In this document: positions 3,457-64,000 of the stretch, piece by piece
Layout: every line of letters starts with the position of its first letter
Numbering within the stretch: the stretch's first letter is position 1
From: a virus
Reading direction: 5' to 3' (one strand)
Length of the DNA: 64,000 bases
Virus record (IMG/VR): IMGVR_UViG_3300045988_128894
Coordinates: 24,731-88,730 of that record
Notes under the pieces: model-generated
Seen by the model: the letters and a program-made list of their open reading frames with translations, nothing else
Told to the model about the DNA's origin: nothing
Databases searched by the model: none
Made by a program: the position numbers and the translations under genes

Positions 3457-3660
3457 ATGAAACCATTAAGAGATAATCCTATCGAAGAAGGAATAGATGC
3501 TTTCTTTGAAGAAAAACAAAGACTCGAAGAAGAAAAGCAAAAACTCGAAGAAGAAATCAGAGATTACGAACAGGATTATTTGGACCGATATTATGATTGG
3601 TTAGAGGAGGAAGAACAAGAGTGTCGTTTAGAACTTCTTAATGACCTTTACAATGACTAA
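3457..3660 (+). CDS. hypothetical acidic coiled-coil protein
   Basis: GGGAG RBS; E/K-rich repeats. Confidence 0.5.
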   Translation: MKPLRDNPIEEGIDAFFEEKQRLEEEKQKLEEEIRDYEQDYLDRYYDWLEEEEQECRLELLNDLYND

Positions 3661-3672
3661 GGAGGTTACATT

Positions 3673-5741: not shown

Positions 5742-6254
5742 ATGAGAGAATTTGAAGGTTTTATTTTTCCTAACGGAAGAATTGTAGCGATTCCTGAAGA
5801 GGAATATATGGCAGCTATCGAAGCGGGAAAAGAAATTCTTGTGTTTTGTGGTGGATGGGCTGGTGGATACGCTAGAGCGTTTGGTGCAGATAAGGAACAG
5901 GATATTTATGAGCCTGATAAAACTTGTTACATGGTCTATTCGTATGATGTTATGGATAAGACCTTTACGCCAGAAGATATGAAGCGGTTCGCTAAAGTGA
6001 TTGTCACAGATGGTATCCGTGTGTATATGAAAACAGGTGAGTCGGCCAGTGATTATTATTCTGGAACCTTCTGTGACTGTGGTACGAAAGACCGGCTCGA
6101 AGAACATTACCCTGACACTTGTAGTAATGATATTGAACAATACGATTTCAGTGATTGTCAGACAGTTGATTTTGATATGACGGTTCGTATGCTGGGTGCC
6201 GATGATAAAGATTACGAAGGTATGGTAAAGATGCTCAAGGAGATTTTGAGGTGA
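5742..6254 (+). CDS. hypothetical protein
   Basis: GGAGTG RBS; 170 aa. Confidence 0.55.
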   Translation: MREFEGFIFPNGRIVAIPEEEYMAAIEAGKEILVFCGGWAGGYARAFGADKEQDIYEPDKTCYMVYSYDVMDKTFTPEDMKRFAKVIVTDGIRVYMKTGESASDYYSGTFCDCGTKDRLEEHYPDTCSNDIEQYDFSDCQTVDFDMTVRMLGADDKDYEGMVKMLKEILR

Positions 6255-6258
6255 TAAA

Positions 6259-6480
6259 ATGTGGGATCTAGTTGAAAATGAATATTCTAAAAAATATGGA
6301 ATTGGGTGTGCAACCTTTTTTCGTGACAAACAATTAAAAACAGCAATGGTTATGTATAAATATAATGGCCGTAGCGTTATGTTTTGCTATTCCGAGTACG
6401 ATAATAAGATTCTATCTGACGGTGATAAAGACGAAATTGAGATGACAATCAAAAAGAAACTCAACTTTTGGAAGGATTAA
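6259..6480 (+). CDS. hypothetical protein
   Basis: GAGGTG RBS. Confidence 0.5.
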   Translation: MWDLVENEYSKKYGIGCATFFRDKQLKTAMVMYKYNGRSVMFCYSEYDNKILSDGDKDEIEMTIKKKLNFWKD

Positions 6481-6482
6481 CT

Positions 6483-6731
6483 ATGTGGGATCTGAGAGAA
6501 GTCCACGCTTGTTTTGATGGTGAAAGTTGGGTTTGGAACGGATCTTTCCATCACAAGGATGTATTTGTAGATGAGAACGAAAACCCGAGAGAAATCTTCT
6601 GGCAAGAATGTCAGATGTTCTTCCTTCAAGATTATCTTAATAAGTGCGAAATCGTTGATGATGGTGATATTCTAGAACTTCAATTGAAGGATTCTGGCGA
6701 GCCGGTTCTTGCTATGATGATTGCAGAGTAA
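6483..6731 (+). CDS. hypothetical protein
   Basis: ATG 6483 after GGAAGG. Confidence 0.45.
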   Translation: MWDLREVHACFDGESWVWNGSFHHKDVFVDENENPREIFWQECQMFFLQDYLNKCEIVDDGDILELQLKDSGEPVLAMMIAE

Positions 6732-6744
6732 AGGAGAATGAATT

Positions 6745-7017
6745 ATGACACGTTTTTATTTGGATGCGGGTACTCTTGGCCGTTGGATGCACCAGAATAA
6801 AGCACAATACACTGGTGCTTATGTTGAAGGTGTTCTGGTTGATAGTTTTGTCGTTGAAACAAAGCGTGGAGTCGCAGCCATCTATGAACACTATCTGAAT
6901 GAGTGGACAAGCAACTATTATGTTGAGTTCACTGATTACAAGAACGGTTTTAAGAATGGCGAGGTCGATAAGATTTGGTCTGATTGGTACGCTTTTGAAG
7001 AAAAGGCTAGTGCATAA
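6745..7017 (+). CDS. hypothetical protein
   Basis: AAAGGAGA RBS. Confidence 0.5.
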   Translation: MTRFYLDAGTLGRWMHQNKAQYTGAYVEGVLVDSFVVETKRGVAAIYEHYLNEWTSNYYVEFTDYKNGFKNGEVDKIWSDWYAFEEKASA

Positions 7018-20009: not shown

Positions 20010-20429
20010 ATGGACAACAATATTGACCCAAAGGTCGGAGAGGTTTGGTTGGTCGATTTGTCCAATGCAACAGGTCATCAGCAGCGCGGTATTCGACCGT
20101 TCGTTGTGACAAGCAACAACAAGCGCAACTTCTTCAGTCCCACAATCAAAGGGAATCCGTTGTCTTCCAGAATATACAAGCGTTCTCCGGTTCATGTTCT
20201 ACTCTCGAAAGAAGACTGCGATTTCCTAGAGGTTGATAGTATCGTTCTTTGTGAAGAGACTGATACACTTAACAAAGGACAGTTCATCAAAAAGCTTGGT
20301 GTCTTGTCTGAGCGTCATATGAATATGATCGCAATGGCAAGATGCAAGGATGAACCGTTCTTACTCGCAGCATTCCTGAGCGGCGTACAACATACTATGG
20401 AATTTCAGAATTTTGCCGCATTTGCTTGA
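20010..20429 (+). CDS. mazF: MazF/PemK/Kid-family endoribonuclease toxin
   Basis: GEVWLVDLSNATGHQQRGIRPFVV almost identical in pattern to Kid/PemK N-terminus GEIWLVSLDPTAGHEQQGTRPVLIV; AGAGGAG RBS. Confidence 0.8.
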   Translation: MDNNIDPKVGEVWLVDLSNATGHQQRGIRPFVVTSNNKRNFFSPTIKGNPLSSRIYKRSPVHVLLSKEDCDFLEVDSIVLCEETDTLNKGQFIKKLGVLSERHMNMIAMARCKDEPFLLAAFLSGVQHTMEFQNFAAFA

Positions 20430-21465: not shown

Positions 21466-21497
21466 AGAAAATAGTATTTGAATGGAGAATGATAACA

Positions 21498-23564
21498 ATG
21501 TCTGATTTCAAGAAATTTCGTGCACTGCTGCAGGACCACTTCAATGAGATGGTGAAGGGCGAAAACCCTCTGTTTATCACCGATGCAGACGAGGATGAAC
21601 TGTATAATCTGTATCTCGACAGCTTCCCAGCTGGCACGAATGAGTTGTTCCGTAAGCGGCGCGAGTATGACTGTTCCTGCTGCCGCCGTTTCGTAAAGAA
21701 CATCGGTAAGCTGGTTTCCTTTATGGATGGTCAGATGGTTACCGTCTGGGATTTCGATACCAAGTCCGATGTTTATCAGCCGGTTGTGGATGCGCTGGCT
21801 GCCTATGTGAAAACCTGCGCTGTTGTGAACCCGTATTACGTCAGCCGCAATATGATCTCTGATAGCAAGTTTGGCACTGAGATGAACTATGAGTATGACG
21901 CTGATCATAAGGCGGTTCATACCTGGGATCATTTCGTTGTCGAGATTCCTCAGCGGTTCATTGTGCGTCCCGATGACGTACCTACCAAGATGGCTCAGTG
22001 GCGTGATTCCGCCAATGTGTTCAAGCGCTCTCTGGAGGAGCTAACCATGGATGCCGTGGACACCGTGCTTGAGCTGATTGCGCAGAACAGCCTGTATCGC
22101 GGTAAGGAGTTTGAATCTCTGGTTCGTGGCTTCAAAATCGATAAGCAAGTGTATGATCGTCTGCCTGATGAAAAGAAGTCCGCTTATGTTTGGATGGCTC
22201 CCGGCGGAGCTTCGATGAACCGGCTTCGCATCCGCAATACGGCAATCGGTACTCTGCTGGTGAACCTGAGCGAGGGCATGGACGTGGATGCTGCTGTGTC
22301 TGCGTTTGAGGCCATTGTTGCTCCCGCCAACTATAAGCGTCCTAAGGCGATTTTTACCAAGAAGATGCTGGAAGACGCACAGAAAACCGTCACTGAGTTG
22401 GGCTATATGAACAGTCTGGGTCGCCGGTTTGCTACTCTGGACGACATCACCGTAAATAACGTTTTATTCTGTAACCGAGACGCAGCCCCTCGTATTACTG
22501 GCGCTGTGAATCCGTTTGAAGCAATGGCGAAGACTGTCGCAATCGATCCTAAGAAGTTCGGCCGCGCAGAGGAAATCGGTATTGATAAGTTTATCAAGGA
22601 CGTGCTGCCCACCGCGACTGGTCTGGAACTGTTTATGGAGAATCGGTTTGAGAAGAATATGACGTCTCTGATTGCTCCGCAGGATAAGAACGCGCCGTCT
22701 ATGTTCAAGTGGGCGAATGGTTTCAGTTGGGCGTATACGGGTAACGTGGCTGACAGCCAGATCCGTGAGAACGTCAAGAATGCAGGCGGTAAGGTTGATG
22801 GCGTGTTGCGTTTCTCTATTCAGTGGAACGATAAGCAGTGCGAGTGGGATGAAAATGACCTTGATGCCCACTGTGTTGAACCGAACGACGTTGAGATCTA
22901 TTTTGGCAACAAACGAGATTGGAGTACTGGTGGCAATCTGGATGTAGATATTATTCATCCTGATCGCGATGAGGCCGCTGTTGAGAATATTACATGGCCT
23001 GACATCAAAAAGATGAAGGATGGTAAATACGAGTTCTTTGTTCATTGCTTCTCTAACCGTGGCGGCAAAACCGGCTTCCGCGCAGAGATTGAATTTGATG
23101 GTCAAATCTACTCCTTCAATTACAATATTCCGCTGCGTCAGACTCAGAATGTTTCTGTTGCTACTGTTGTGTTGAATGATGGGCAGTTTACTATTAAGGA
23201 ACATCTCAATAGTTCTACTTCTTCCCGTGAAATCTGGGGTGTGAATTCCAATCAGTTTGTACCGGTGTCCGTAGCAATGTATTCTCCGAACTACTGGGAC
23301 GAGCAGAGTGGTAACGGTAATCGTCATTACTTCTTCATGCTCAAGGATTGTGTAAACCCTGAAAAGCCCAATGGATTCTACAATGAATTCCTGAAGGCGG
23401 AACTGCTACAGCATAAGCGAGTATTCGAGGCTCTTGGTTCTCAGATGGCAGTTCAGTCGGTAGATGACCAGCTGTCCGGCGTTGGGTTCTCTGAGACGAA
23501 ACATGATTCCTTTGTTGTCAAGGTTCAGGGCGCTACTGAGCGGGTTCTGAAAGTTGTTATTTAA
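21498..23564 (+). CDS. large hypothetical protein (689 aa)
   Basis: GGAGA RBS before ATG 21498; CSCC cluster near N-terminus; no recognisable catalytic motifs. Confidence 0.55.
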   Translation: MSDFKKFRALLQDHFNEMVKGENPLFITDADEDELYNLYLDSFPAGTNELFRKRREYDCSCCRRFVKNIGKLVSFMDGQMVTVWDFDTKSDVYQPVVDALAAYVKTCAVVNPYYVSRNMISDSKFGTEMNYEYDADHKAVHTWDHFVVEIPQRFIVRPDDVPTKMAQWRDSANVFKRSLEELTMDAVDTVLELIAQNSLYRGKEFESLVRGFKIDKQVYDRLPDEKKSAYVWMAPGGASMNRLRIRNTAIGTLLVNLSEGMDVDAAVSAFEAIVAPANYKRPKAIFTKKMLEDAQKTVTELGYMNSLGRRFATLDDITVNNVLFCNRDAAPRITGAVNPFEAMAKTVAIDPKKFGRAEEIGIDKFIKDVLPTATGLELFMENRFEKNMTSLIAPQDKNAPSMFKWANGFSWAYTGNVADSQIRENVKNAGGKVDGVLRFSIQWNDKQCEWDENDLDAHCVEPNDVEIYFGNKRDWSTGGNLDVDIIHPDRDEAAVENITWPDIKKMKDGKYEFFVHCFSNRGGKTGFRAEIEFDGQIYSFNYNIPLRQTQNVSVATVVLNDGQFTIKEHLNSSTSSREIWGVNSNQFVPVSVAMYSPNYWDEQSGNGNRHYFFMLKDCVNPEKPNGFYNEFLKAELLQHKRVFEALGSQMAVQSVDDQLSGVGFSETKHDSFVVKVQGATERVLKVVI

Positions 23565-23578
23565 GAGGAGAAATTATT

Positions 23579-23962
23579 ATGGAAAAGAATCTGTTTGAAA
23601 TTGCAACCCGTAATCGCTATCGCTTCAACTATAAGGGTATTATGACTGTTGAAGATCTGTGGGATCTGAGTGTCGAGGCACTAGATGCGATTTTTAAGAC
23701 CCTGAATCGTCAGAAGAAGACCGCAGACGAAGACTCCTTGCTGGCTGTTAAGAGTGCCGAAAATACCGAACTGGCAAACAAGATTGAGCTGGTCAAGTAT
23801 ATCGTGTCTGTCAAGCTGGCTGAATCTGAGGCTCGTGTGGATGCAGCCGAGAAGAAGGCGCAGCGCGATAAGATTATGAAGATTGTGGCAAAGAAGAAGG
23901 ACAAGGAGCTGGAAGATATGGACGTAGACCAGCTGATGAAGAAGCTGGAAGAGTTGAACTAA
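23579..23962 (+). CDS. hypothetical coiled-coil protein
   Basis: AGAGGAG RBS; K/E-rich heptad-like sequence. Confidence 0.5.
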   Translation: MEKNLFEIATRNRYRFNYKGIMTVEDLWDLSVEALDAIFKTLNRQKKTADEDSLLAVKSAENTELANKIELVKYIVSVKLAESEARVDAAEKKAQRDKIMKIVAKKKDKELEDMDVDQLMKKLEELN

Positions 23963-24042
23963 AATAGACATTTTATCGTGATTTTTGTTGAAATAATTAA
24001 CGAAGATACGCTATAATTTTGAGGTAATTTTGATGAAAACCT

Positions 24043-24699
24043 ATGAAAAAAATCGAAACGGTGTTCAATCGTGACATCGAAGGTACTAAAAAGTTGATTA
24101 TCGGTGATTTCCGCAGTGAGACCATCGAGTTCCTACAAAATAACGAGTGGGAATTTACTGAGAAAGTGGATGGCACGAATGTGCGTGTTTGCTGGGACGG
24201 TCACAAAGTCAGCTTTGCTGGACGAACTGAACGTGCCGAACTTCCTAAGAATTTGGTGGATGCACTAAATAAAATTTTCGGTACTTCTGAAGCAGAGGAA
24301 TTGTTTGAACAGACTTACGGTGATAAAGAAGTAATCCTCTTTGGAGAGGGTTATGGTGGCAAAATTCAAGGATGCGGTCATGGATACCGACCTGACGAGT
24401 GGTTCATCTTGTTCGATGTCCTGATTGGTGATAACTACCAGAGTAGAGAGTGGGTCAAAAAGACTGCTCAGATGTTTGGCATCCAAGCGGTTCCTGTTTT
24501 ATTCACAGGGACGATTCGAGACGGTATCAAGTTTGTATGTCGGCATCCGAAGTCTACGATTTCGATTGGTGGCATTTATATGGAAGGTCTAGTTGGTCGG
24601 CCAAAAGTTGAATTGAAAGACCGTAGAGGTAATCGAGTAATTGTCAAAATCAAGTGGAATGATTTCAAGGATATCGCTGATACGCTTGGTAATGAGTAA
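24043..24699 (+). CDS. small nucleotidyltransferase-fold polynucleotide ligase (RNA-ligase-like, KxDG)
   Basis: motif I EKVDGTN, motif IV-like GEGYGGK, motif V IVKIKW; 218 aa minimal ligase; sits immediately 5' of tRNA array. Confidence 0.5.
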   Translation: MKKIETVFNRDIEGTKKLIIGDFRSETIEFLQNNEWEFTEKVDGTNVRVCWDGHKVSFAGRTERAELPKNLVDALNKIFGTSEAEELFEQTYGDKEVILFGEGYGGKIQGCGHGYRPDEWFILFDVLIGDNYQSREWVKKTAQMFGIQAVPVLFTGTIRDGIKFVCRHPKSTISIGGIYMEGLVGRPKVELKDRRGNRVIVKIKWNDFKDIADTLGNE

Positions 24700-24738
24700 T
24701 TAAGACATTTTCTTCCTCCGAAAATGCCCTGCGCGGGG

Positions 24739-24768
24739 CTGACAGCCGGGAAAGAACGGCGATTATAT
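24739..24768 (+). promoter_or_regulatory. possible promoter for tRNA array (CTGACA-18-TTATAT)
   Basis: weak -35/-10 ending 1 nt before first tRNA. Confidence 0.25.
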
Positions 24769-24856
24769 GCCGCAGTGATGGAGTGACATACATTTCCCGC
24801 TTAAACCGGGACGCCTGAAACACGGATCGTGGGTTTGAATCCCACCTGCGGCACCA
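24769..24856 (+). tRNA. tRNA-Leu (anticodon TAA), type II with long variable arm, CCA encoded
   Basis: acceptor GCCGCAG/CTGCGGC, anticodon stem TCCCG/CGGGA with loop CTTAAAC, T-arm GTGGG-TTTGAAT-CCCAC, A73+CCA; D-stem only 3 bp. Confidence 0.65.
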
Positions 24857-24859
24857 TAT

Positions 24860-24933
24860 CCAGAATGTAGTGTAATGGCAGCACGCTGCGTTTGGGACGC
24901 AGAAGAGCGATTCGAATTCGACATTTTGGACCA
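24860..24933 (+). tRNA. tRNA-like, anticodon TGG (Pro) but degenerate T-stem; possibly pseudo-tRNA
   Basis: acceptor CCAGAAT/ATTTTGG (one G-U), perfect anticodon arm CTGCG-TTTGGGA-CGCAG, canonical TTCGAAT T-loop but T-stem only 3 bp, CCA encoded. Confidence 0.4.
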
Positions 24934-25028
24934 GTGGAGTATTCCACTTGCTTTTCATGAATACCTTCCTATTATTCTTGGCTCTCCAAAAAACGGAGCA
25001 GTAGGACGCAGCAAGCCAAGTTACATAA

Positions 25029-25118
25029 TGAGGGTTCGCCAAGTGGTAAATGGCATCTGGCTTTGACCCAGACAGCGTGCTTTATAGCCGATCGTCGGTT
25101 CGATCCCGACACCCTCAA
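25029..25118 (+). tRNA. type II tRNA (long variable arm, A73) with anticodon TTG
   Basis: 7/7 acceptor TGAGGGT/ACCCTCA, D-arm GCCA-agtggtaaa-TGGC, anticodon arm TCTGG-CTTTGAC-CCAGA, ~21-nt variable arm, T-arm GTCGG-TTCGATC-CCGAC; no CCA. Confidence 0.6.
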
Positions 25119-25123
25119 TTTAT

Positions 25124-25212
25124 GGACACGTGATGGAATCGCAGACATGAAAGATTTAGGCTCTTTTGCCGTTAACAGCGGTGTGCCCGTTCAAATCGGG
25201 TCGTGTCCACCA
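25124..25212 (+). tRNA. tRNA-Leu (anticodon TAG), type II, CCA encoded
   Basis: acceptor GGACACG/CGTGTCC, anticodon arm AAAGA-TTTAGGC-TCTTT, variable arm with GCCG/CGGT stem, T-arm GCCCG-TTCAAAT-CGGGT, A73+CCA. Confidence 0.65.
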
Positions 25213-25316
25213 TTATCAACTTATGGTTGCGTACCGTTTTGTTGATCTCCTTTGACCACTATTATTCCCAGCTCGCCAGTGATGGTGCAGTAGTGCTTTG
25301 CAAGCTGGGTTTTCAT

Positions 25317-25391
25317 GCAGCGGTCGTACAACGGCTAGTACATCAGCCTTCCAAGCTGAGGATGAGGTTTCGACTACCTTTCGCTGCTCCA
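25317..25391 (+). tRNA. tRNA-Gly (anticodon TCC)
   Basis: acceptor GCAGCGG/TCGCTGC, D-arm GTAC-aacggcta-GTAC, anticodon arm TCAGC-CTTCCAA-GCTGA, T-arm GAGGT-TTCGACT-ACCTT, CCA encoded. Confidence 0.7.
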
Positions 25392-25579
25392 GTCTTGTAT
25401 GGGTAGGATCTTTAGCGGTCAGATCCGGCCGCGCCTGTTCAAGATACCACCCCGAAAGGGGCGAGATATAGGAAATGTGCATCGCTGTTATTCCTTCCTC
25501 GTCTATATGGTATAGATGCAATAGTGTTTTATAAGGAAGGTTCCCAGTTGAATAGTTGCAGCTGTTTGACTGGTAATAT

Positions 25580-25655
25580 GGAATAGTAGCTCAGTTGGTT
25601 AGAGCCGACAACTTATAATTGTCAGACGCGAGTTCAAATCTCGACTATTCCACCA
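25580..25655 (+). tRNA. tRNA-Ile (anticodon TAT)
   Basis: acceptor GGAATAG/CTATTCC, D-arm GCTC-agttggtta-GAGC, anticodon arm GACAA-CTTATAA-TTGTC, T-loop TTCAAAT, CCA encoded. Confidence 0.7.
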
Positions 25656-25758
25656 GCCCGAAAGGGTGTACATAGAATCTGCTAGAACTTTTGTTTTATA
25701 AGCGTTGAAATAATATGACGTTGATACGTCTATTGTTTTTCGCTTATTCTCTGAGATT

Positions 25759-25779
25759 TAGCTATGTAACACAGGATAC
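25759..25779 (+). promoter_or_regulatory. 21-bp motif copy TAGCTATGTAACACAGGATAC (direct) upstream of methyltransferase gene
   Basis: followed by AAAAGGAGG RBS. Confidence 0.4.
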
Positions 25780-25806
25780 GAAAAGGAGGTGGTTTGGTGA
25801 AACATT

Positions 25807-27261
25807 ATGGAAGTATTTGCGAGATTGATGGTTCTAAGATTGAACCTGTCTCGTGTATCACTGGTGGTTCACCTTGTTAGCCAAGATCTTTCTATTGCCG
25901 GTAAGCGGGCAGGTTTGGCTGGAGAACGGTCTGGTCTATTTATGGAAATGATTCGTGTGATAAAAGAAATGAGGGATACCACCAATGGAGAATATCCAAA
26001 ATTTGCAATCTGGGAAAATGTTAGAGGAGCACTCTCCTCAAACAACGGAGAAGACTTCCGATGTGTCTTGGAAGAATTTGCACACATCGTCGAAGCAGAC
26101 GCTACAATTCCTAAACCTTCGGAAAAAGGTGGAAAATGGTCTAAATCCGGCGCAATTTCCGGTAATGGATGGTCTTTGGCATGGAGACTCTTCGATGCTC
26201 AATACTGGGGAGTGCCCCAACGTCGTCAAAGAATCGCGCTTGTCATGGATTTTGGAGGACAACGTGCCGCAAAGATATTATTTGAGCGCACGGGCGTGCC
26301 AGGGAATTCTGACGAGAGCATCCCGACGTGGCAAGGTGCTGCCAGAATTGCTGAAAAATGCATTGTTGGAAATGATCGAGTGGTGGGAGAAAAAAGCTTT
26401 TGTATCGTCGGAAACATGATTGACAGAGAAACCAACATGAATGGGACTGGTGTAAAAGAAGATACTGCTTTCACTATAAACACTATTGACCGTAATGCTG
26501 TTGCCTACACTTTAAAGATTCGTTCAGGATGCGAAGGTGGTGGCAAAGGCGCACTGGTACAAATCGAGAAGAGCGCAACGCTTTCTACATTGCAAGATCA
26601 AACGTTAATTTGCTTGGCAGACAACACCTCTTTACATAATTCAAAACAAAAGATTTCGCCGGTGGTGTTTGAGAGTCACAGTCAGGATGCTCGATACACT
26701 CAACAGGGCGACACAAGTCCGGCTTGTACGGCTCAATGGGGGACTGGTGGCAATAATATGCCGCTTGTTGCTGAAAAGAAAACCTTTGCAATGCAACGCA
26801 TTGGTGAATACAAGGAAAGTGAACAAGCTAGTACGATGAAATCTCGTGACTACAAGGATGCTACTGACTTGATTGCAGAGAAGGAAACGAAGAATCTGCA
26901 ATGGATTGTTCGTCGCCTGACTCCTGTCGAGTGTGAACGACTTCAAGGGTTCCCTGATGGATGGACTGATATTGGCGAGTGGGTTGATGAGAATGGTAAA
27001 AAGCACAAACCAGCTGATTCTCCTCGTTACAAGGCGCTCGGCAATTCGATTGCATTGCCTCAGTGGTATTGGATTTTCCAGAAAATGAAGCCGTATATCG
27101 GTGAGAATCCTACGCTTGGCAGTCTTTTTGATGGAATCGGTGGCTTTCCGCTTGTCTTTGAAAGTACGTATGGTGATGGTACTGCTATCTGGGGATCTGA
27201 AATTGAACCGTTCTGCGTTGCAGTAACTAAGAAGCATTTTCCAGAAAAGCAAGGAGGATAA
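25807..27261 (+). CDS. C5-cytosine DNA methyltransferase with permuted/scrambled motif order and disrupted PCQ motif (probably non-functional as annotated)
   Basis: ORF contains motif IV tail QDLSIAGKRAG, motif VI FAIWENV, motif VIII QYWGVPQRRQR, motif IX RLTPVECERLQGFPDGW, motif X LGNSIALP and then motif I LFDGIGGFPL at its C-terminus; GGSPC of motif IV lies upstream (25863-25877) in another frame and is followed by TAG. Confidence 0.55.
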   Translation: MEVFARLMVLRLNLSRVSLVVHLVSQDLSIAGKRAGLAGERSGLFMEMIRVIKEMRDTTNGEYPKFAIWENVRGALSSNNGEDFRCVLEEFAHIVEADATIPKPSEKGGKWSKSGAISGNGWSLAWRLFDAQYWGVPQRRQRIALVMDFGGQRAAKILFERTGVPGNSDESIPTWQGAARIAEKCIVGNDRVVGEKSFCIVGNMIDRETNMNGTGVKEDTAFTINTIDRNAVAYTLKIRSGCEGGGKGALVQIEKSATLSTLQDQTLICLADNTSLHNSKQKISPVVFESHSQDARYTQQGDTSPACTAQWGTGGNNMPLVAEKKTFAMQRIGEYKESEQASTMKSRDYKDATDLIAEKETKNLQWIVRRLTPVECERLQGFPDGWTDIGEWVDENGKKHKPADSPRYKALGNSIALPQWYWIFQKMKPYIGENPTLGSLFDGIGGFPLVFESTYGDGTAIWGSEIEPFCVAVTKKHFPEKQGG

Positions 27262-44923: not shown

Positions 44924-46255
44924 ATGACAGATAAGGAACTCATAGGTAAGCTTGATGCAATGGTTAAGGCATTGCAAAAAGCAAAGAAGAAGACGGACAA
45001 GACCCGCATTTTGCTGGATGCACGAAAAGATTTTGGAGATGAGGCTGACGAGCTGATGGCATTCTTCCGATTCCTGCTTGACCCGGCGATTGTGACTGGC
45101 CTGTCTGATGCAAAAATCAATAAGAAGGTAACTGCAAAGCCGGATATCGAAATTCAATATCTCAGCTGTGGATACCTTTATATTATGGGCGCTGGGCACA
45201 ATACCGGCTCTGATGCATCCATCGCAACAATCCAGAATTATTTACATAAAAATCATGAATACGAAGAGTTTCTGAAGCGACTGTTCACTAAGAACTTGCC
45301 GATTGGAGTCGAGGCAGCGACCATCAATAAAGTGTACGGCGAAGAGATTATTCCAGTCTGGGAGGTCCAGCAGGGATATCCGATTGATAAGGTAAAGCTG
45401 AAGGATGGCATTTGGTTCAGTTTGAGCCAGAAGATGAATGGCAATAGGGGGACTCTATATCGTGGAGATTTAATTTCTCGTCAGGCACAGAAATTTGAAG
45501 GTCTTGACCATATTAAGAATGACCTGCTCTCTTTGTATGATGGCGATGCGACGAGGCGAGATTCTTTGGTATTTGACGGAGAACTTATCTACAAGAATCC
45601 CGAAGGAATGTCGGACGGAGAGGCGTTTCGTTTCGGAACTGGCCTACTTAATTCTGACAACAAGGACAAGACTGAAATCAAATTTGTGATTTTTGATGTG
45701 ATTCCTGTTGTAGAGTTCGACCGTGGGAAATGCGCGGTTCCGTATCGGACGCGCCGTGAATGGTTAAATTGTCTTCGCGCAGAGATTACTCGCAAGAACC
45801 TTGAAAACATCGAAATTGTTCCAATGGTATATGAAGGTACTGACCAGAGTGTGATCCCGAAGTGGCTTGATTATGCTGTCGAACACGATTGGGAAGGTCT
45901 TATGTTGAACACGGACATCCCTTATCGTCGGGCTCGTCACAACGGATGTCTCAAAATTAAGCGTTTTTACACTGTTGATCTACGAATCACAGCGATTGAA
46001 GAAGGTCAGAACCGTCTGGCTGGTACGATGGGCGCTCTGGTTGTTGATTACAAAGGTAACGAGATTCGTGTTGGTTCCGGTTTTGATGATGCTACGAGAG
46101 CTGCTGTGTGGGCAAATCCTGATAATTACATCGGCAAGATTGTGGAGTGTAAATATAAAGAGGTCACGATGGATAAAAAGACCGGCCTTGAGTCTCTGCA
46201 ATTCCCGACGTTTGTAAGATTTAGAGATGACAAGAACGAGGTGTCTTATGGCTGA
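44924..46255 (+). CDS. ATP-dependent DNA ligase
   Basis: motif I KMNGNRG (KxDG-type), motif III FDGELIY, IIIa FVIFDV, IV EGLMLN, V LKIKRF; 443 aa. Confidence 0.7.
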   Translation: MTDKELIGKLDAMVKALQKAKKKTDKTRILLDARKDFGDEADELMAFFRFLLDPAIVTGLSDAKINKKVTAKPDIEIQYLSCGYLYIMGAGHNTGSDASIATIQNYLHKNHEYEEFLKRLFTKNLPIGVEAATINKVYGEEIIPVWEVQQGYPIDKVKLKDGIWFSLSQKMNGNRGTLYRGDLISRQAQKFEGLDHIKNDLLSLYDGDATRRDSLVFDGELIYKNPEGMSDGEAFRFGTGLLNSDNKDKTEIKFVIFDVIPVVEFDRGKCAVPYRTRREWLNCLRAEITRKNLENIEIVPMVYEGTDQSVIPKWLDYAVEHDWEGLMLNTDIPYRRARHNGCLKIKRFYTVDLRITAIEEGQNRLAGTMGALVVDYKGNEIRVGSGFDDATRAAVWANPDNYIGKIVECKYKEVTMDKKTGLESLQFPTFVRFRDDKNEVSYG

Positions 46256-63962: not shown

Positions 63963-64000
63963 AGATCGGAAGAGCACACGTCTGAACTCCAGTCACCTAA
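63963..64000. other. Illumina TruSeq adapter sequence (AGATCGGAAGAGCACACGTCTGAACTCCAGTCAC) - assembly artefact / contig end
   Basis: exact match to the well-known adapter read-through sequence at the 3' end of the window. Confidence 0.85.

What the first reader, a model, noticed from the sequence alone, without database searches (positions are those of the whole stretch)
24043..25655. Polynucleotide-ligase gene immediately followed by a six-tRNA array
A 218-aa KxDG nucleotidyltransferase (motifs I, IV, V only; RNA-ligase-like minimal enzyme) ends 70 nt before a compact array of tRNAs: Leu-TAA, Pro-TGG-like, a type-II tRNA with TTG anticodon, Leu-TAG, Gly-TCC and Ile-TAT. Five of the six carry an encoded CCA. 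Phage tRNA sets and RNA ligases are each known counter-measures to host anticodon nucleases and tRNA-depleting defences. The tight physical coupling here suggests one tRNA supply and repair module. The anticodon set (UAA, UAG, UAU, UCC, UGG) is biased towards A/U-ending codons. No Pnk-like end-healing enzyme is adjacent; candidate HAD, metallophosphoesterase and P-loop kinase genes lie elsewhere in the window.
Basis: partly seen in the sequence, partly recalled or inferred. Interest (0 to 1): 0.6.

Follow-up and report, generated by a model that had tools for sequence, protein, structure and literature searches.

The report
Phage tRNA island with minimal RNA ligase
An AT-rich prophage living in a GC-rich gut bacterium carries six tRNA genes for exactly the codons its host almost never uses, placed behind a stripped-down RNA ligase gene that is a frequent but dispensable neighbour; one of the tRNAs, a glutamine tRNA with an extra arm, belongs to a type seen almost only in phages.

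Summary
ORF 24043-24699 is a 218-aa RNA-ligase-family adenylyltransferase (PF09414; fold closest to T4 Rnl2 and Naegleria Rnl), and six tRNAs follow 69 nt later, five with encoded CCA.

- The tRNA half has an ordinary, well-supported explanation. The element is a 41% GC prophage in a 61-65% GC Firmicute. The six cognate codons (CUA, UUA, CCA, CAA, AUA, GGA) are 4-fold to more than 10-fold over-used by the phage relative to the host flank.
- The ligase-tRNA link is recurrent but facultative. Most close relatives have the ligase without tRNAs, next to NAD-salvage genes. One relative has the array with the ligase cleanly deleted.
- Three siblings carry a kinase-phosphatase-Rnl1 fusion in the same slot. 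This suggests an RNA-repair theme rather than a fixed two-part machine.
- The window has no end-healing enzyme. The ligase could therefore seal only 3'-OH/5'-phosphate nicks.

Other points of note: a 90-nt class-II tRNA-Gln(UUG) recurs in unrelated phage arrays but is essentially absent from 185,579 bacterial and archaeal genomes; three copies of a covarying structured spacer lie in the array; and TAG usage is anomalous.

The parts
21489..23564 (+). 691-aa protein (DUF8224 / phrog_1735). It is the conserved upstream member of the cassette p691-p127-ligase.
   Evidence: phrog_1735, E 3e-257. PF26675 is recorded on its orthologue. It is syntenic with the ligase in L001-L020, L028 and L035. There are no Pfam, PDB or PADLOC hits in local scans.
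23579..23962 (+). 127-aa helical, charged protein (phrog_2018). It is conserved between p691 and the ligase.
   Evidence: It persists where the ligase is deleted (L064) and where the ligase is absent (L082), so it is not an obligate ligase partner.
23988..24017 (+). Sigma-70-like promoter candidate (TTGAAA-18-TATAAT, 11 of 12 matches) upstream of the ligase.
   Evidence: The same GTTGAAATAAT element recurs at 25704, bracketing the unit. This is a consensus match only.
24043..24699 (+). Stand-alone RNA-ligase-family adenylyltransferase (218 aa). It has an Rnl2/Rnl5-like catalytic domain with no accessory domain.
   Evidence: PF09414, 59.3 bits. TIGR02307 and TIGR02306 match only weakly. The AF2 model has pLDDT 86.5. 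The top Foldseek hits are T4 Rnl2, NgrRnl and TbREL1. The catalytic motifs are invariant.
24700..24768 (+). Conserved 69-nt connector between the upstream gene and the first tRNA.
   Evidence: It is nearly invariant in L002-L005 and L016. It is also retained after the ligase deletion in L064 and after the kinase-phosphatase-ligase fusion gene in L085. Its function is unknown.
24769..24856 (+). tRNA-Leu(UAA), class II, with encoded CCA.
   Evidence: 47 bits.
24860..24933 (+). tRNA-Pro(UGG) with an irregular 3-4 bp T-stem and encoded CCA.
   Evidence: 45.2 bits. The irregular T-arm is kept, with compensatory changes, in L003 and L016.
24970..25020 (+). Structured spacer element, copy 1: TATTATTC, then a 7-bp stem enclosing a hairpin and a GCAGUAG single strand.
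25029..25118 (+). Class-II tRNA-Gln(UUG), 90 nt. It has U1-A72, a Gln-type D-arm, a 21-nt variable region with a 5-bp arm, discriminator A73 and no encoded CCA.
   Evidence: (52.8 bits). Ordinary 71-74 nt Gln tRNAs occupy the same slot in L002-L005 and L016.
25124..25212 (+). tRNA-Leu(UAG), class II, with encoded CCA.
   Evidence: 44.1 bits.
25260..25309 (+). Structured spacer element, copy 2.
25317..25391 (+). tRNA-Gly(UCC), with encoded CCA.
   Evidence: 55.5 bits.
25486..25540 (+). Structured spacer element, copy 3.
25580..25655 (+). tRNA-Ile(UAU), with encoded CCA. In siblings this slot alternates with a CAU-anticodon elongator tRNA, probably tRNA-Ile2.
   Evidence: (63 bits).
25704..25750 (+). 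Twin promoter-like element with a hairpin and T-run. It marks the end of the ligase-tRNA unit and the start of the C5-methyltransferase unit.
   Evidence: fold z-score -4.6 for 25656-25760.

Best explanation
The region is one early-type transcription unit in the accessory ('counter-defence / host-adaptation') hot spot of a temperate phage. The phage has about 41% GC and is integrated in a 61-65% GC Firmicute. The unit has two separable parts.

**(1) The tRNA array is a codon-supply device.** This is shown by statistics. All six tRNAs have U34 and read A-ending codons (UUA, CCA, CAA, CUA, GGA, AUA). The GC-rich host almost never uses these codons, and the phage uses them 4-fold to more than 10-fold more often. 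Sibling arrays add Leu-CAA for UUG, and they swap Ile-UAU for a CAU-anticodon tRNA, probably tRNA-Ile2. The array is mosaic. It is interspersed with three copies of a structured spacer RNA and, in siblings, with HNH homing-endonuclease genes.

**(2) The 218-aa protein is an ATP-dependent RNA-ligase-type adenylyltransferase of the Rnl2/Rnl5 kind, reduced to the catalytic domain.** This is inferred from family, fold and motifs. It most plausibly reseals 3'-OH/5'-phosphate breaks in structured RNA, such as nicked tRNA. Metal-dependent nucleases (PIN, Toprim, HNH types) leave such ends. It cannot by itself repair 2',3'-cyclic-phosphate/5'-OH ends.

**How the parts relate.** Its position next to the tRNAs reflects a shared theme, keeping translation running in a hostile host, and a shared insertion hot spot. 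It is not an obligate partnership. Either part occurs without the other in close relatives. In some siblings a full kinase-phosphatase-Rnl1 healing-and-sealing fusion replaces the ligase cassette.
For: **Prophage and host**
- Three independent assemblies continue the window's right end into Xis, a Tn916-type integrase, and then bacterial genes of 61-65% GC.
- The window itself is 37-47% GC.

**Codon supply**
- Host-flank shares of each codon within its family: CTA 0%, TTA 1%, ATA 1%, CCA 3%, CAA 6%, GGA 6%.
- Phage shares for the same codons: 8, 8, 7, 23, 28 and 23%.
- The six cognate codons rank 1, 6, 11, 14, 15 and 17 of 59 by phage/host over-use. Fisher p ranges from 2e-7 to 0.02.

**tRNAs are real and maintained**.

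**Ligase family, fold and motifs**
-.
- It belongs to a large stand-alone family of about 215 aa, with 365 clusters (at 50% identity) at E<=1e-30.
- A separate replicative ATP DNA ligase with an OB domain lies at 44924-46255.

**Separability**
- The ligase occurs without tRNAs in L006-L015, L017-L020, L028 and L033-L036. There it lies next to an AAA ATPase and NAD-reconstitution genes.
- The array occurs without the ligase in L064.
- The kinase-phosphatase-Rnl1 fusion sits upstream of the same connector and array in L085, L079 and L046.

**Recurrent adjacency in other lineages**
- L021, L139/L140, L141, L155/L178 and L181.

**Transcription unit**.

**Background**
- Phages pairing tRNAs with Rnl1, Rnl2 or RtcB plus end-healing enzymes is an established theme (PMC7824862).
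Against: - The host codon sample is small: 8 flanking genes, 2,126 codons. It comes from assemblies that share the window's right end, not from the window itself.
- AGA, ACA, GTA, AAA and GAA are equally over-used by the phage but have no tRNA in this array. Supply is therefore incomplete.
- No biochemical data exist for any member of this stand-alone ligase family.
- In T4 Rnl2 and DraRnl the flanking domain is needed for full nick sealing (PMC1807946). A domain-less enzyme may therefore need a partner or do something else.
- The repeated tRNA adjacency in at least 5 lineages, and the Pnkp-like replacement, could mean a tighter functional link than I credit.
- The promoter and terminator calls are consensus matches only.
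Confidence: 0.6

Rival explanations
1. The ligase and the tRNAs form one dedicated supply-and-repair module. Host anticodon nucleases cut tRNAs, the array replaces them, and the ligase reseals them.
For: - The ligase and tRNAs share a co-transcribed layout.
- The ligase family lies within 500 nt of tRNA genes in at least 5 independent lineages.
- In siblings, the same slot holds a complete kinase-phosphatase-Rnl1 fusion of the T4 Pnkp + Rnl1 type.
- RtcB lies near the ligase in L037 and L039.
- The theme is documented for large phages (PMC7824862).
Against: - 19 clade members have the ligase but no tRNA within 5 kb.
- L064 has the array with the ligase deleted.
- The window has no polynucleotide kinase or phosphatase homologue, so classic anticodon-nuclease ends (2',3'-cyclic phosphate / 5'-OH) cannot be sealed.
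- The Rnl2/Rnl5 type seals nicks in duplexes. In T4 the tRNA-repair enzyme is Rnl1, not Rnl2 (established knowledge).
- The tRNA set is fully explained by codon compensation.
Confidence: 0.25
2. The tRNAs are mainly defence-evasion substitutes: nuclease-insensitive copies of tRNAs that host systems destroy. The odd features, such as the class-II Gln tRNA, the irregular Pro T-arm and Ile-UAU in place of Ile2, would be escape variants. Codon supply would be secondary.
For: - Phage tRNAs that evade tRNA-targeting defences are documented (PMC10264068).
- Sibling arrays contain HNH endonuclease genes and duplicated Gly tRNAs.
- Two structurally different Gln alleles alternate at one slot.
- The island neighbours are counter-defence-type genes: NAD reconstitution, methyltransferases and MazF-like.
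Against: - The anticodon set matches the phage/host codon gap closely, which defence evasion does not predict.
- No tRNA-targeting system is identified in the host flank.
- There is no experimental handle here.
Confidence: 0.2
3. The 218-aa protein is not a complete ligase. One possibility is that it performs only adenylyl transfer, acting as a 5'-adenylylating or AMPylating enzyme. Another is that it needs a separately encoded partner, such as p127 or p691, to supply the missing nucleic-acid-binding domain.
For: - It consists of the nucleotidyltransferase domain alone.
- In DraRnl and T4 Rnl2 the flanking domain is required for overall sealing and/or adenylylation (PMC1807946; Rnl2 from established knowledge).
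- p691-p127-ligase is a conserved triad in the clade.
Against: - All six ligase motifs, including motif V lysines and motif Ia, are conserved across a very large family.
- More distant family members lack p691 and p127.
- p127 stays when the ligase is lost.
Confidence: 0.15

Closest known systems
T4 RNA ligase 2 (Rnl2) and the Rnl2-like nick-sealing ligases (TbREL1)
   Same: It is in the same Pfam family (PF09414). Rnl2 gives the best structural matches (2hvr, 1s68, 2hvq; E 3e-10 to 2e-9). The same motifs are present: I, Ia, III, IIIa, IV and V.
   Different: It has no C-terminal domain (218 aa against 334 aa). It scores only 26.8 bits against the Rnl2 equivalog model, whose cut-off is 197. 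Sequence identity is about 20%.
DraRnl / NgrRnl (Rnl5 clade)
   Same: The nucleotidyltransferase fold matches (5cou, 6vt*; E about 1e-7; TM-score 0.6). TIGR02306 aligns to its catalytic domain.
   Different: It lacks the N-terminal OB-like module that DraRnl needs for sealing and adenylylation (PMC1807946). The score is far below the family cut-off (23.4 against 151).
Phage T4 tRNA cluster with SegB and the Pnkp + Rnl1 tRNA repair pathway
   Same: - The array holds U34 tRNAs for A-ending minor codons. T4's own set includes Gln-UUG, Leu-UAA, Gly-UCC, Pro-UGG and an AUA-reading Ile (from memory).
- Small stable RNAs or spacers lie in the cluster.
- Sibling arrays contain homing endonuclease genes.
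- RNA repair genes are in the same genome.
- Some siblings have kinase-phosphatase-Rnl1 fused in one protein.
   Different: - Here the ligase is Rnl2/Rnl5-like, not Rnl1.
- There is no Pnkp in the window.
- The phage is temperate and infects a GC-rich Firmicute.
- The ligase is physically adjacent to the array, but dispensably so.
Clostridium thermocellum Pnkp-type kinase-phosphatase-ligase enzymes (comparison for the sibling fusion, not for the window protein)
   Same: The L085 and L079 737-aa protein has three parts. The N-terminal P-loop kinase matches the CthPnkp kinase domain chains 4gp7 and 4jst. The central part is a calcineurin-type phosphoesterase. The C-terminal part is a ligase domain.
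   Different: Its ligase domain is Rnl1/Trl1-type (PF09511, 139 bits). No Hen1 partner was seen. The protein is absent from the window.
Class II tRNAs (Leu, Ser, Tyr, Sec) and allo-tRNAs
   Same: The window's Gln tRNA has a long variable arm forming a stem-loop, like class II tRNAs.
   Different: - It has a Gln-type body (U1-A72, G2-C71, GCCAAGYGGUAAGGCA D-arm, UUG anticodon).
- It has the ordinary 7/5 acceptor/T architecture, unlike the 8/4 or 9/3 of allo-tRNAs (PMC5389517).
- Apart from one 45-kb contig of a Clostridiales MAG that carries a phage-like tRNA array, it is found only in phage contigs, not in cellular genomes.

Membership tests
Pfam PF09414 RNA_ligase (covalent nucleotidyltransferase superfamily) | Profile score above the curated gathering threshold | tested here: met
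   59.3 bits against a cut-off of 27. The match covers profile positions 2-171 of 171.
Pfam PF09414 RNA_ligase (covalent nucleotidyltransferase superfamily) | Motif I lysine (KxDG) plus motifs Ia, III, IIIa, IV and V | tested here: met
   K41/D43/G44/N46, R61, E102, F124-D125, E181 and K202/K204 are invariant in 34 homologues and at least 90% conserved in 44 divergent ones. They align to the T4 Rnl2 motifs.
Pfam PF09414 RNA_ligase (covalent nucleotidyltransferase superfamily) | ATP-dependent self-adenylylation and 3'-OH/5'-PO4 RNA sealing | not testable with these tools
   This needs purified protein.
Rnl2 family (TIGR02307 equivalog) | Equivalog score of at least 197 and the all-helical C-terminal domain | tested here: not met
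   It scores 26.8 bits. The match covers only profile positions 21-224 of 326, and the protein ends at residue 218. The AF2 model shows a single domain.
Rnl5 / DraRnl family (TIGR02306 equivalog) | Equivalog score of at least 151 and the N-terminal OB-like module | tested here: not met
   It scores 23.4 bits. Only profile positions 154-336 align, and there is no N-terminal module.
Rnl2/Rnl5-type nucleotidyltransferase fold | Structural similarity is greater to RNA ligases than to DNA ligases or capping enzymes | tested here: met
   Foldseek gives Rnl2 at 3e-10, NgrRnl at about 5e-8 and TbREL1 at 8e-8. Rnl1, Trl1 and Rnl3 fall at 1e-6 to 1e-5. The first DNA ligases appear at about 1e-4.
tRNA (Rfam RF00005) | Covariance-model score above the gathering score (29 bits) and a cloverleaf called by ARAGORN | tested here: met
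   All six score 44.1-63 bits and match the full-length model.
tRNA-Gln | UUG anticodon in a 7-nt loop, a U1-A72 first pair, G2-C71 and a Gln-type D-arm | tested here: met
   Shown. Across 10 long-arm variants, U1-A72 is present in 9 of 10 and G2-C71 in 10 of 10.
tRNA-Gln | Charged with glutamine (directly, or via Glu plus amidotransferase) | not testable with these tools
   This is inferred only. It is the sole phage Gln tRNA, it sits in the slot of a normal Gln tRNA, and CAA makes up 28% of phage Gln codons.
Class II (long-variable-arm) tRNA | A variable region of more than 10 nt that forms its own stem-loop | tested here: met
   The variable region is 21 nt, with a 5-bp arm and a UUAU loop in the MFE fold. 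Nine other phage Gln tRNAs have different arms of 3-7 bp.
T4-type tRNA healing-and-sealing system (Pnkp + ligase) | A 5'-kinase and a 2',3'-phosphatase are encoded with the ligase | tested here: not met
   tblastn of the sibling kinase-phosphatase-ligase fusion against the window finds nothing better than E=1. The only related signals are a replication-linked metallophosphoesterase and sub-threshold HAD and AAA_33 hits.
Codon-compensating phage tRNA set | The cognate codons are used more by the phage than by the host | tested here: met
   All six codons are significantly enriched in phage ORFs relative to the host flank, with ranks 1-17 of 59. The host sample is small.

The most novel reading that the evidence does not exclude
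The 90-nt tRNA-Gln(UUG) at 25029-25118 would be a working member of a phage-restricted class-II tRNA-Gln family. This is a tRNA architecture not known for glutamine in cells. Its extra arm would have been repeatedly acquired and kept because it does something. Candidate roles are to shield the phage's CAA/CAG decoder from a host tRNA-directed nuclease or modification enzyme, or to give a handle for a phage factor. All of these would leave glutamine identity intact.
Probability: 0.4. Interest if true: 0.65.

Novelty: new variant of a known kind. Interest (0 to 1): 0.45.

Why it matters
**The core finding is a clean but conventional example.**
- A low-GC temperate phage in a high-GC host imports the tRNAs it needs.
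- It keeps RNA-repair genes in the same variable island.

**Three points are less conventional.**
1. There is a very large, uncharacterised family of about 215-aa RNA ligases consisting of the catalytic domain alone. Their activity would test how much of a ligase is really needed for RNA sealing.
2. One genomic slot alternates between this minimal ligase, a full kinase-phosphatase-Rnl1 fusion, and nothing. This is a natural experiment on what RNA repair buys a phage.
3. Glutamine tRNAs with a long extra arm turn up in several unrelated phage arrays but, in effect, not in 185,579 cellular genomes. If they are functional, they extend the class-II tRNA architecture to a new amino acid. They may also be a structural route by which phage tRNAs escape host attack.

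Tried and rejected
**Dead ends**
- PADLOC found nothing for the ligase, p691, p127, the MazF-like protein or the sibling fusion.
- PDB sequence searches gave no significant hit: the ligase matched T4 Rnl2 only at E=0.36, above the 0.001 default, and p691 matched nothing meaningful.
- An Rfam E-value scan of 23500-26500 found only the six tRNAs plus an antisense chance hit. The spacer elements and the connector therefore match no known family.
- Literature searches for long-arm Gln tRNAs and for stand-alone RNA ligases found nothing specific.

**Ideas tested and dropped**
- I tested whether the window is read in a TAG-readthrough code. Readthrough does not lengthen real genes, so the standard code is adequate for the window's ORFs.
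- I considered p127 as the missing helical domain of an Rnl2-like enzyme. I dropped this because p127 persists without the ligase, and distant ligases lack it.
- I considered the long-arm Gln tRNA as a body-mutant UAG reader. I dropped this because siblings with TAG-containing HNH genes carry the ordinary Gln allele.

**Attempts that fell short**
- I tried to obtain a denominator for ordinary phage Gln tRNAs with the same D-arm pattern.
- I tried to reach late genes by walking upstream of the window. I found a minus-strand block with an RdRP-like RNA polymerase but no TAG-interrupted genes. One look-up returned no record.
Full report
**1. The observation**

ARAGORN finds exactly six tRNA genes in the 64-kb window. 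All lie on the + strand between 24769 and 25655: Leu-UAA, Pro-UGG, Gln-UUG, Leu-UAG, Gly-UCC and Ile-UAU. Rfam's tRNA model scores all six at 44-63 bits against a gathering score of 29, each over the full length of the model. The sequence shows an encoded CCA after five of them. The Gln tRNA lacks one.

The ORF at 24043-24699 (218 aa) ends 69 nt before the first tRNA. It matches Pfam PF09414 RNA_ligase at 59.3 bits (cut-off 27) and PHROG 548 'RNA ligase'.

First, the protein has the full motif set of covalent nucleotidyltransferases, not just motifs I, IV and V:
- motif I: K41-VDGTN
- motif Ia: G60-R61-T62
- motif III: FGE102GYG
- motif IIIa: F124-D125
- motif IV: E181-GLV
- motif V: K202-I-K204

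Second, the property shared by the six anticodons is U at position 34.

**2. What the ligase is**

Against NCBIfam it touches the Rnl2 and DraRnl equivalog models only weakly. The scores are 26.8 and 23.4 bits against cut-offs of 197 and 151, and only the catalytic domains align.

An AlphaFold model built on 34 homologues is confident (pLDDT 86.5, pTM 0.84) and shows one domain. Foldseek against the PDB ranks the matches as follows:
- T4 Rnl2 first (E 3e-10 to 2e-9)
- then Naegleria NgrRnl and trypanosome REL1 (about 1e-7)
- then Rnl1, Trl1 and Rnl3 (1e-6 to 1e-5)
- DNA ligases only from about 1e-4

That criterion is therefore not met.

The window also encodes a normal ATP-dependent DNA ligase with an OB domain at 44924-46255, among the replication genes. 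The small protein is therefore not the replicative ligase.

The family is large. More than 7,900 close sequences were found. There are 2,770 clusters (at 50% identity) at E<=1e-3, of which 365 are at E<=1e-30, and nearly all are 205-225 aa. It is thus a widespread, stand-alone, catalytic-domain-only RNA-ligase family.

In T4 Rnl2 and DraRnl the extra domain is needed for complete nick sealing (PMC1807946; for Rnl2, established knowledge). How a domain-less enzyme works is open. I found no paper that characterises one.

**3. What surrounds it, and is the coupling conserved?**

A strong sigma-70-like site (TTGAAA-18-TATAAT) sits at 23988-24017. A twin element (GTTGAAATAAT...) sits at 25704, just after the last tRNA. 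There is no convincing terminator between the ligase and the tRNAs. The ligase and the six tRNAs are therefore probably one transcript. This is an inference from consensus matches.

Upstream, a 691-aa DUF8224 protein and a 127-aa protein form a conserved triad with the ligase.

Among related viral contigs, the arrangement varies:
- **Ligase followed by the array.** The window and six loci with 94-100% identical ligases show this (L001-L005, L016).
- **Ligase without tRNAs.** Fifteen loci of the same clade (74-92% identity) and four further assemblies keep the triad but have no tRNA within 5 kb. There the ligase lies between an AAA/STAND ATPase and genes for a PRPP-synthetase-like protein, a NAMPT-like protein, a macro domain, NAD synthase and an isochorismatase. 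This is an NAD+-reconstitution set.
- **Array without ligase.** I found loci through the unusual Gln tRNA that carry the same array. In L064 the ligase ORF is cleanly deleted, so p127 is followed by the conserved connector and then the tRNAs.
- **Array with a different repair gene.** In L085, L079 and L046 the whole p691-p127-ligase cassette is replaced by a 737-aa protein. This protein has an N-terminal P-loop polynucleotide-kinase domain (AAA_33, matching the C. thermocellum Pnkp kinase chains). It has a central calcineurin-type phosphoesterase and a C-terminal Rnl1/Trl1-type ligase domain (PF09511, 139 bits).

The window has no homologue of that fusion.

In 60 more distant homologue loci (41-64% identity), 12 have a tRNA within 5 kb and 6 have one within 500 nt. 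These represent about four further lineages. L021 has a seven-tRNA array just upstream of the ligase.

My reading is that the adjacency recurs too often to be pure chance. The slot is also thematically an 'RNA repair' slot. But each part exists without the other in close relatives, so this is not an obligate two-component module.

**4. What the tRNAs are for**

Walking from the window's last ORF into public assemblies shows that the element is a prophage. In three assemblies (contigs of 163-616 kb) the window's right end continues for about 2-3 kb. It then reaches an excisionase and a Tn916-type integrase, followed by ordinary bacterial genes: carboxyltransferase, YicC, RemA, guanylate kinase and PriA. 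Those host genes are 61-65% GC. The window is 37-47% GC.

Share of each cognate codon within its amino-acid family, in 83 window ORFs and in the 2,126-codon host flank:

| Codon | Phage | Host flank |
|---|---|---|
| CTA | 8% | 0% |
| TTA | 8% | 1% |
| ATA | 7% | 1% |
| CCA | 23% | 3% |
| CAA | 28% | 6% |
| GGA | 23% | 6% |

Ranked by phage/host over-use, these six codons take places 1, 6, 11, 14, 15 and 17 of 59. Each difference is significant, with p from 2e-7 to 0.02. T-ending codons, which fill many of the other top ranks, are read by the same G34 tRNAs as the host's favoured C-ending codons and need no supplement. TTG (rank 3) is served by the Leu-CAA tRNA present in sibling arrays.

The last slot alternates between Ile-UAU and a CAU-anticodon elongator tRNA. 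The latter is probably tRNA-Ile2, the lysidine-dependent AUA reader. That assignment is an inference from slot and body similarity.

There are three caveats:
- The host sample is small.
- The host sample comes from sibling assemblies, not from the window.
- AGA, ACA, GTA, AAA and GAA are equally over-used by the phage yet unserved in this array.

**5. How it most likely works**

*Shown:*
- six well-formed tRNAs
- an RNA-ligase-family catalytic domain with intact motifs
- the codon gap between phage and host
- the separability of the two parts

*Inferred:*
- The unit is transcribed early from the 23988 promoter.
- Host RNase P/Z and CCA-adding enzyme mature the tRNAs. The Gln tRNA needs CCA addition.
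- Host synthetases charge the tRNAs, which lifts the phage's A-ending-codon bottleneck.
- The ligase, adenylylated at K41, reseals 3'-OH/5'-phosphate breaks in structured RNA.

There is no kinase or phosphatase here. The ligase could therefore handle the products of metal-dependent nucleases (PIN, Toprim, HNH types). It could not handle the 2',3'-cyclic-phosphate/5'-OH ends made by PrrC-, RloC-, colicin- or MazF-type enzymes. The sibling kinase-phosphatase-Rnl1 fusion would cover those ends.

The phage itself encodes a PemK/MazF-like protein at 20010-20429. I found no evidence that links it to the ligase.

**6. The class-II tRNA-Gln**

The third tRNA is a tRNA-Gln by body: U1-A72, G2-C71, a D-arm of the form GCCAAGUGGUAAAUGGCA, and a UUG anticodon in a normal 7-nt loop. 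It also carries a 21-nt variable region that folds into a 5-bp arm.

In L002-L005 and L016 the same slot holds an ordinary 71-74 nt tRNA-Gln. The long form is identical in nine other contigs of the clade.

I scanned IMG/VR with a pattern for a Gln-type D-arm, the UUG loop and a long variable region. It matched 65 contigs, comprising 26 distinct flanked sequences; I noted one of these, L065, as a false hit. ARAGORN, run on representatives, called 84-93-nt tRNA-Gln(UUG) in several unrelated lineages. Their variable arms differ in sequence, but each folds into a hairpin.

Across ten distinct sequences, 14 of 20 cloverleaf pairs show compensatory changes, and 1 of 200 cells is unpaired. These are therefore maintained genes, not decaying pseudogenes.

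The same pattern scanned over one genome for each of 185,579 bacterial and archaeal species gave 17 hits. Sixteen are normal-length Gln tRNAs with a chance downstream match. The one true case lies in a 45-kb MAG contig with a phage-like tRNA array.

I know of no cellular class-II tRNA-Gln, and literature searches found none. This tRNA is the phage's only Gln tRNA, and CAA is common in phage genes. I therefore think it still accepts glutamine, and that the arm serves another purpose, but that is inference. [quoted passage not shown]

**7. Other features inside the coordinates**

Three spacers of the array contain copies of a roughly 50-nt element, at 24970-25020, 25260-25309 and 25486-25540. 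Each copy has TRTTATTC, a 7-bp stem, an inner hairpin (with GUGA or GUAA loops in some copies) and a conserved GCARUAG single strand.

In 14 distinct copies from the clade, every pair is formed. My search demanded pairing of the outer stem, so that helix is biased. The inner helix was not selected for. It is 100% paired, and three of its four pairs covary. No Rfam family matches the element.

The 69-nt connector before the first tRNA is conserved whichever gene precedes it.

**8. Comparison with what is known, and verdict**

The theme is established: phage tRNA arrays that compensate codon usage, and RNA ligases with or without end-healing enzymes as counter-measures to RNA-cleaving defences (the T4 paradigm; PMC7824862).

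This locus is a member of that kind, with unusual parts:
- a catalytic-domain-only ligase from a large uncharacterised family
- a slot that alternates between this ligase, a Pnkp-Rnl1 fusion and nothing
- a phage-restricted class-II tRNA-Gln
- a covarying spacer RNA

I rate it a new variant of a known kind, with interest 0.45.

Noticed in passing
window, whole (+ strand ORFs); sibling loci L002:6330-7340, L003/L016:~5830-6760, L064:640-1600, L077:1-870, L085:3330-4300(-), L310:1265-2170: None of 99 window ORFs of at least 70 aa ends in TAG (58 end in TAA, 41 in TGA).

The HNH endonuclease genes inside sibling tRNA arrays carry 2-5 in-frame TAG codons and no other in-frame stops. Every TAG position aligns with Trp (TGG) in sister genes, and with Trp or Tyr in distant standard-code homologues. 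None aligns with a conserved Gln. The 'Q' printed at these positions in database proteins is presumably the gene caller's code-15 convention.

This hints that TAG is read as Trp, or as an aromatic residue, in this clade. Only TAG->Gln and TGA->Trp are described for phages (PMC11210395, PMC9523058). There is no CUA-anticodon tRNA in the window. One relative's gene does end in TAG.
   Followed up: partly
window 25798-25900 (start of the C5-methyltransferase, ORF 25807-27261); L003:8080-8250; L016:7780-7950: The catalytic motif of a circularly permuted C5 DNA methyltransferase is interrupted. The sequence reads GGT GGT TCA CCT TGT TAG C CAA GAT CTT. This encodes GGSPC, then a 4-nt insertion containing an in-frame TAG, then QDLSIAG in the +1 frame.

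The same insertion is present in three independent contigs (window, L003, L016). L005, L071 and L100 have an uninterrupted GGSPCQDLSQAG. The 484-aa downstream ORF is intact. Possible explanations are a programmed +1 frameshift at a stop codon, quadruplet decoding, or a recently inactivated allele.
   Followed up: partly
window 24970-25020, 25260-25309, 25486-25540: Three copies of a roughly 50-nt structured spacer element lie between the tRNAs. Each has TRTTATTC, a 7-bp stem, an inner hairpin and a GCARUAG single strand. Compensatory changes occur among 14 distinct copies in the clade. No Rfam family matches.
   Followed up: yes
L312-L314 (assemblies continuing the window's right end); about 2-3 kb past window position 64000: The element is an integrated prophage. 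An excisionase and a Tn916-type integrase are followed by bacterial genes of 61-65% GC, whereas the phage is about 41% GC. The host is therefore a high-GC gut Firmicute.
   Followed up: yes
L085:4498-6711(-), L079:82-1887, L046:1-867: Sibling phages carry a 737-aa polynucleotide-kinase / metallophosphatase / Rnl1-type ligase fusion. It sits immediately upstream of the same connector and tRNA array, replacing the DUF8224-p127-mini-ligase cassette.
   Followed up: yes
L006:5647-9568; L033-L036:6659-12213: In relatives without the tRNA array, the mini-ligase is followed by a PRPP-synthetase-like gene, a NAMPT-like gene, a macro domain, NAD synthase and an isochorismatase. This is an NAD+-reconstitution (anti-defence) gene set. 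An AAA/STAND ATPase precedes the ligase.
   Followed up: partly
window 20010-20429: The phage encodes a PemK/MazF-like endoribonuclease toxin homologue (PF02452, 69 bits), 3.6 kb upstream of the ligase. More distant ligase loci (L037-L039) also carry PemK together with MazE.
   Followed up: no
window 25580-25655 and the equivalent slot in L002, L005, L016, L066, L072, L077, L085: The last array slot alternates between tRNA-Ile(UAU) and a CAU-anticodon elongator tRNA. The latter is probably the lysidine-dependent tRNA-Ile2. These are two different solutions for reading AUA at one position.
   Followed up: partly
L072:2476-2567, L082:8400-8487, L081:5026-5117 and 3584-3664, L106:4244-4323: Other phage arrays contain further oversized tRNAs of normally class-I identity: Met/Ile-CAU of 92 nt, Ile-UAU of 88 nt and Trp-CCA of 92 nt. 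They also contain tRNAs that ARAGORN calls with four-base anticodons (cgtt, ttct).
   Followed up: no
L316:1-1764(-), about 8-10 kb upstream of the window start: A minus-strand block upstream of the window encodes a PF05183 RdRP-like protein (at least 927 aa). This may be a phage-encoded RNA polymerase (an interpretation from memory, not tested here).
   Followed up: no
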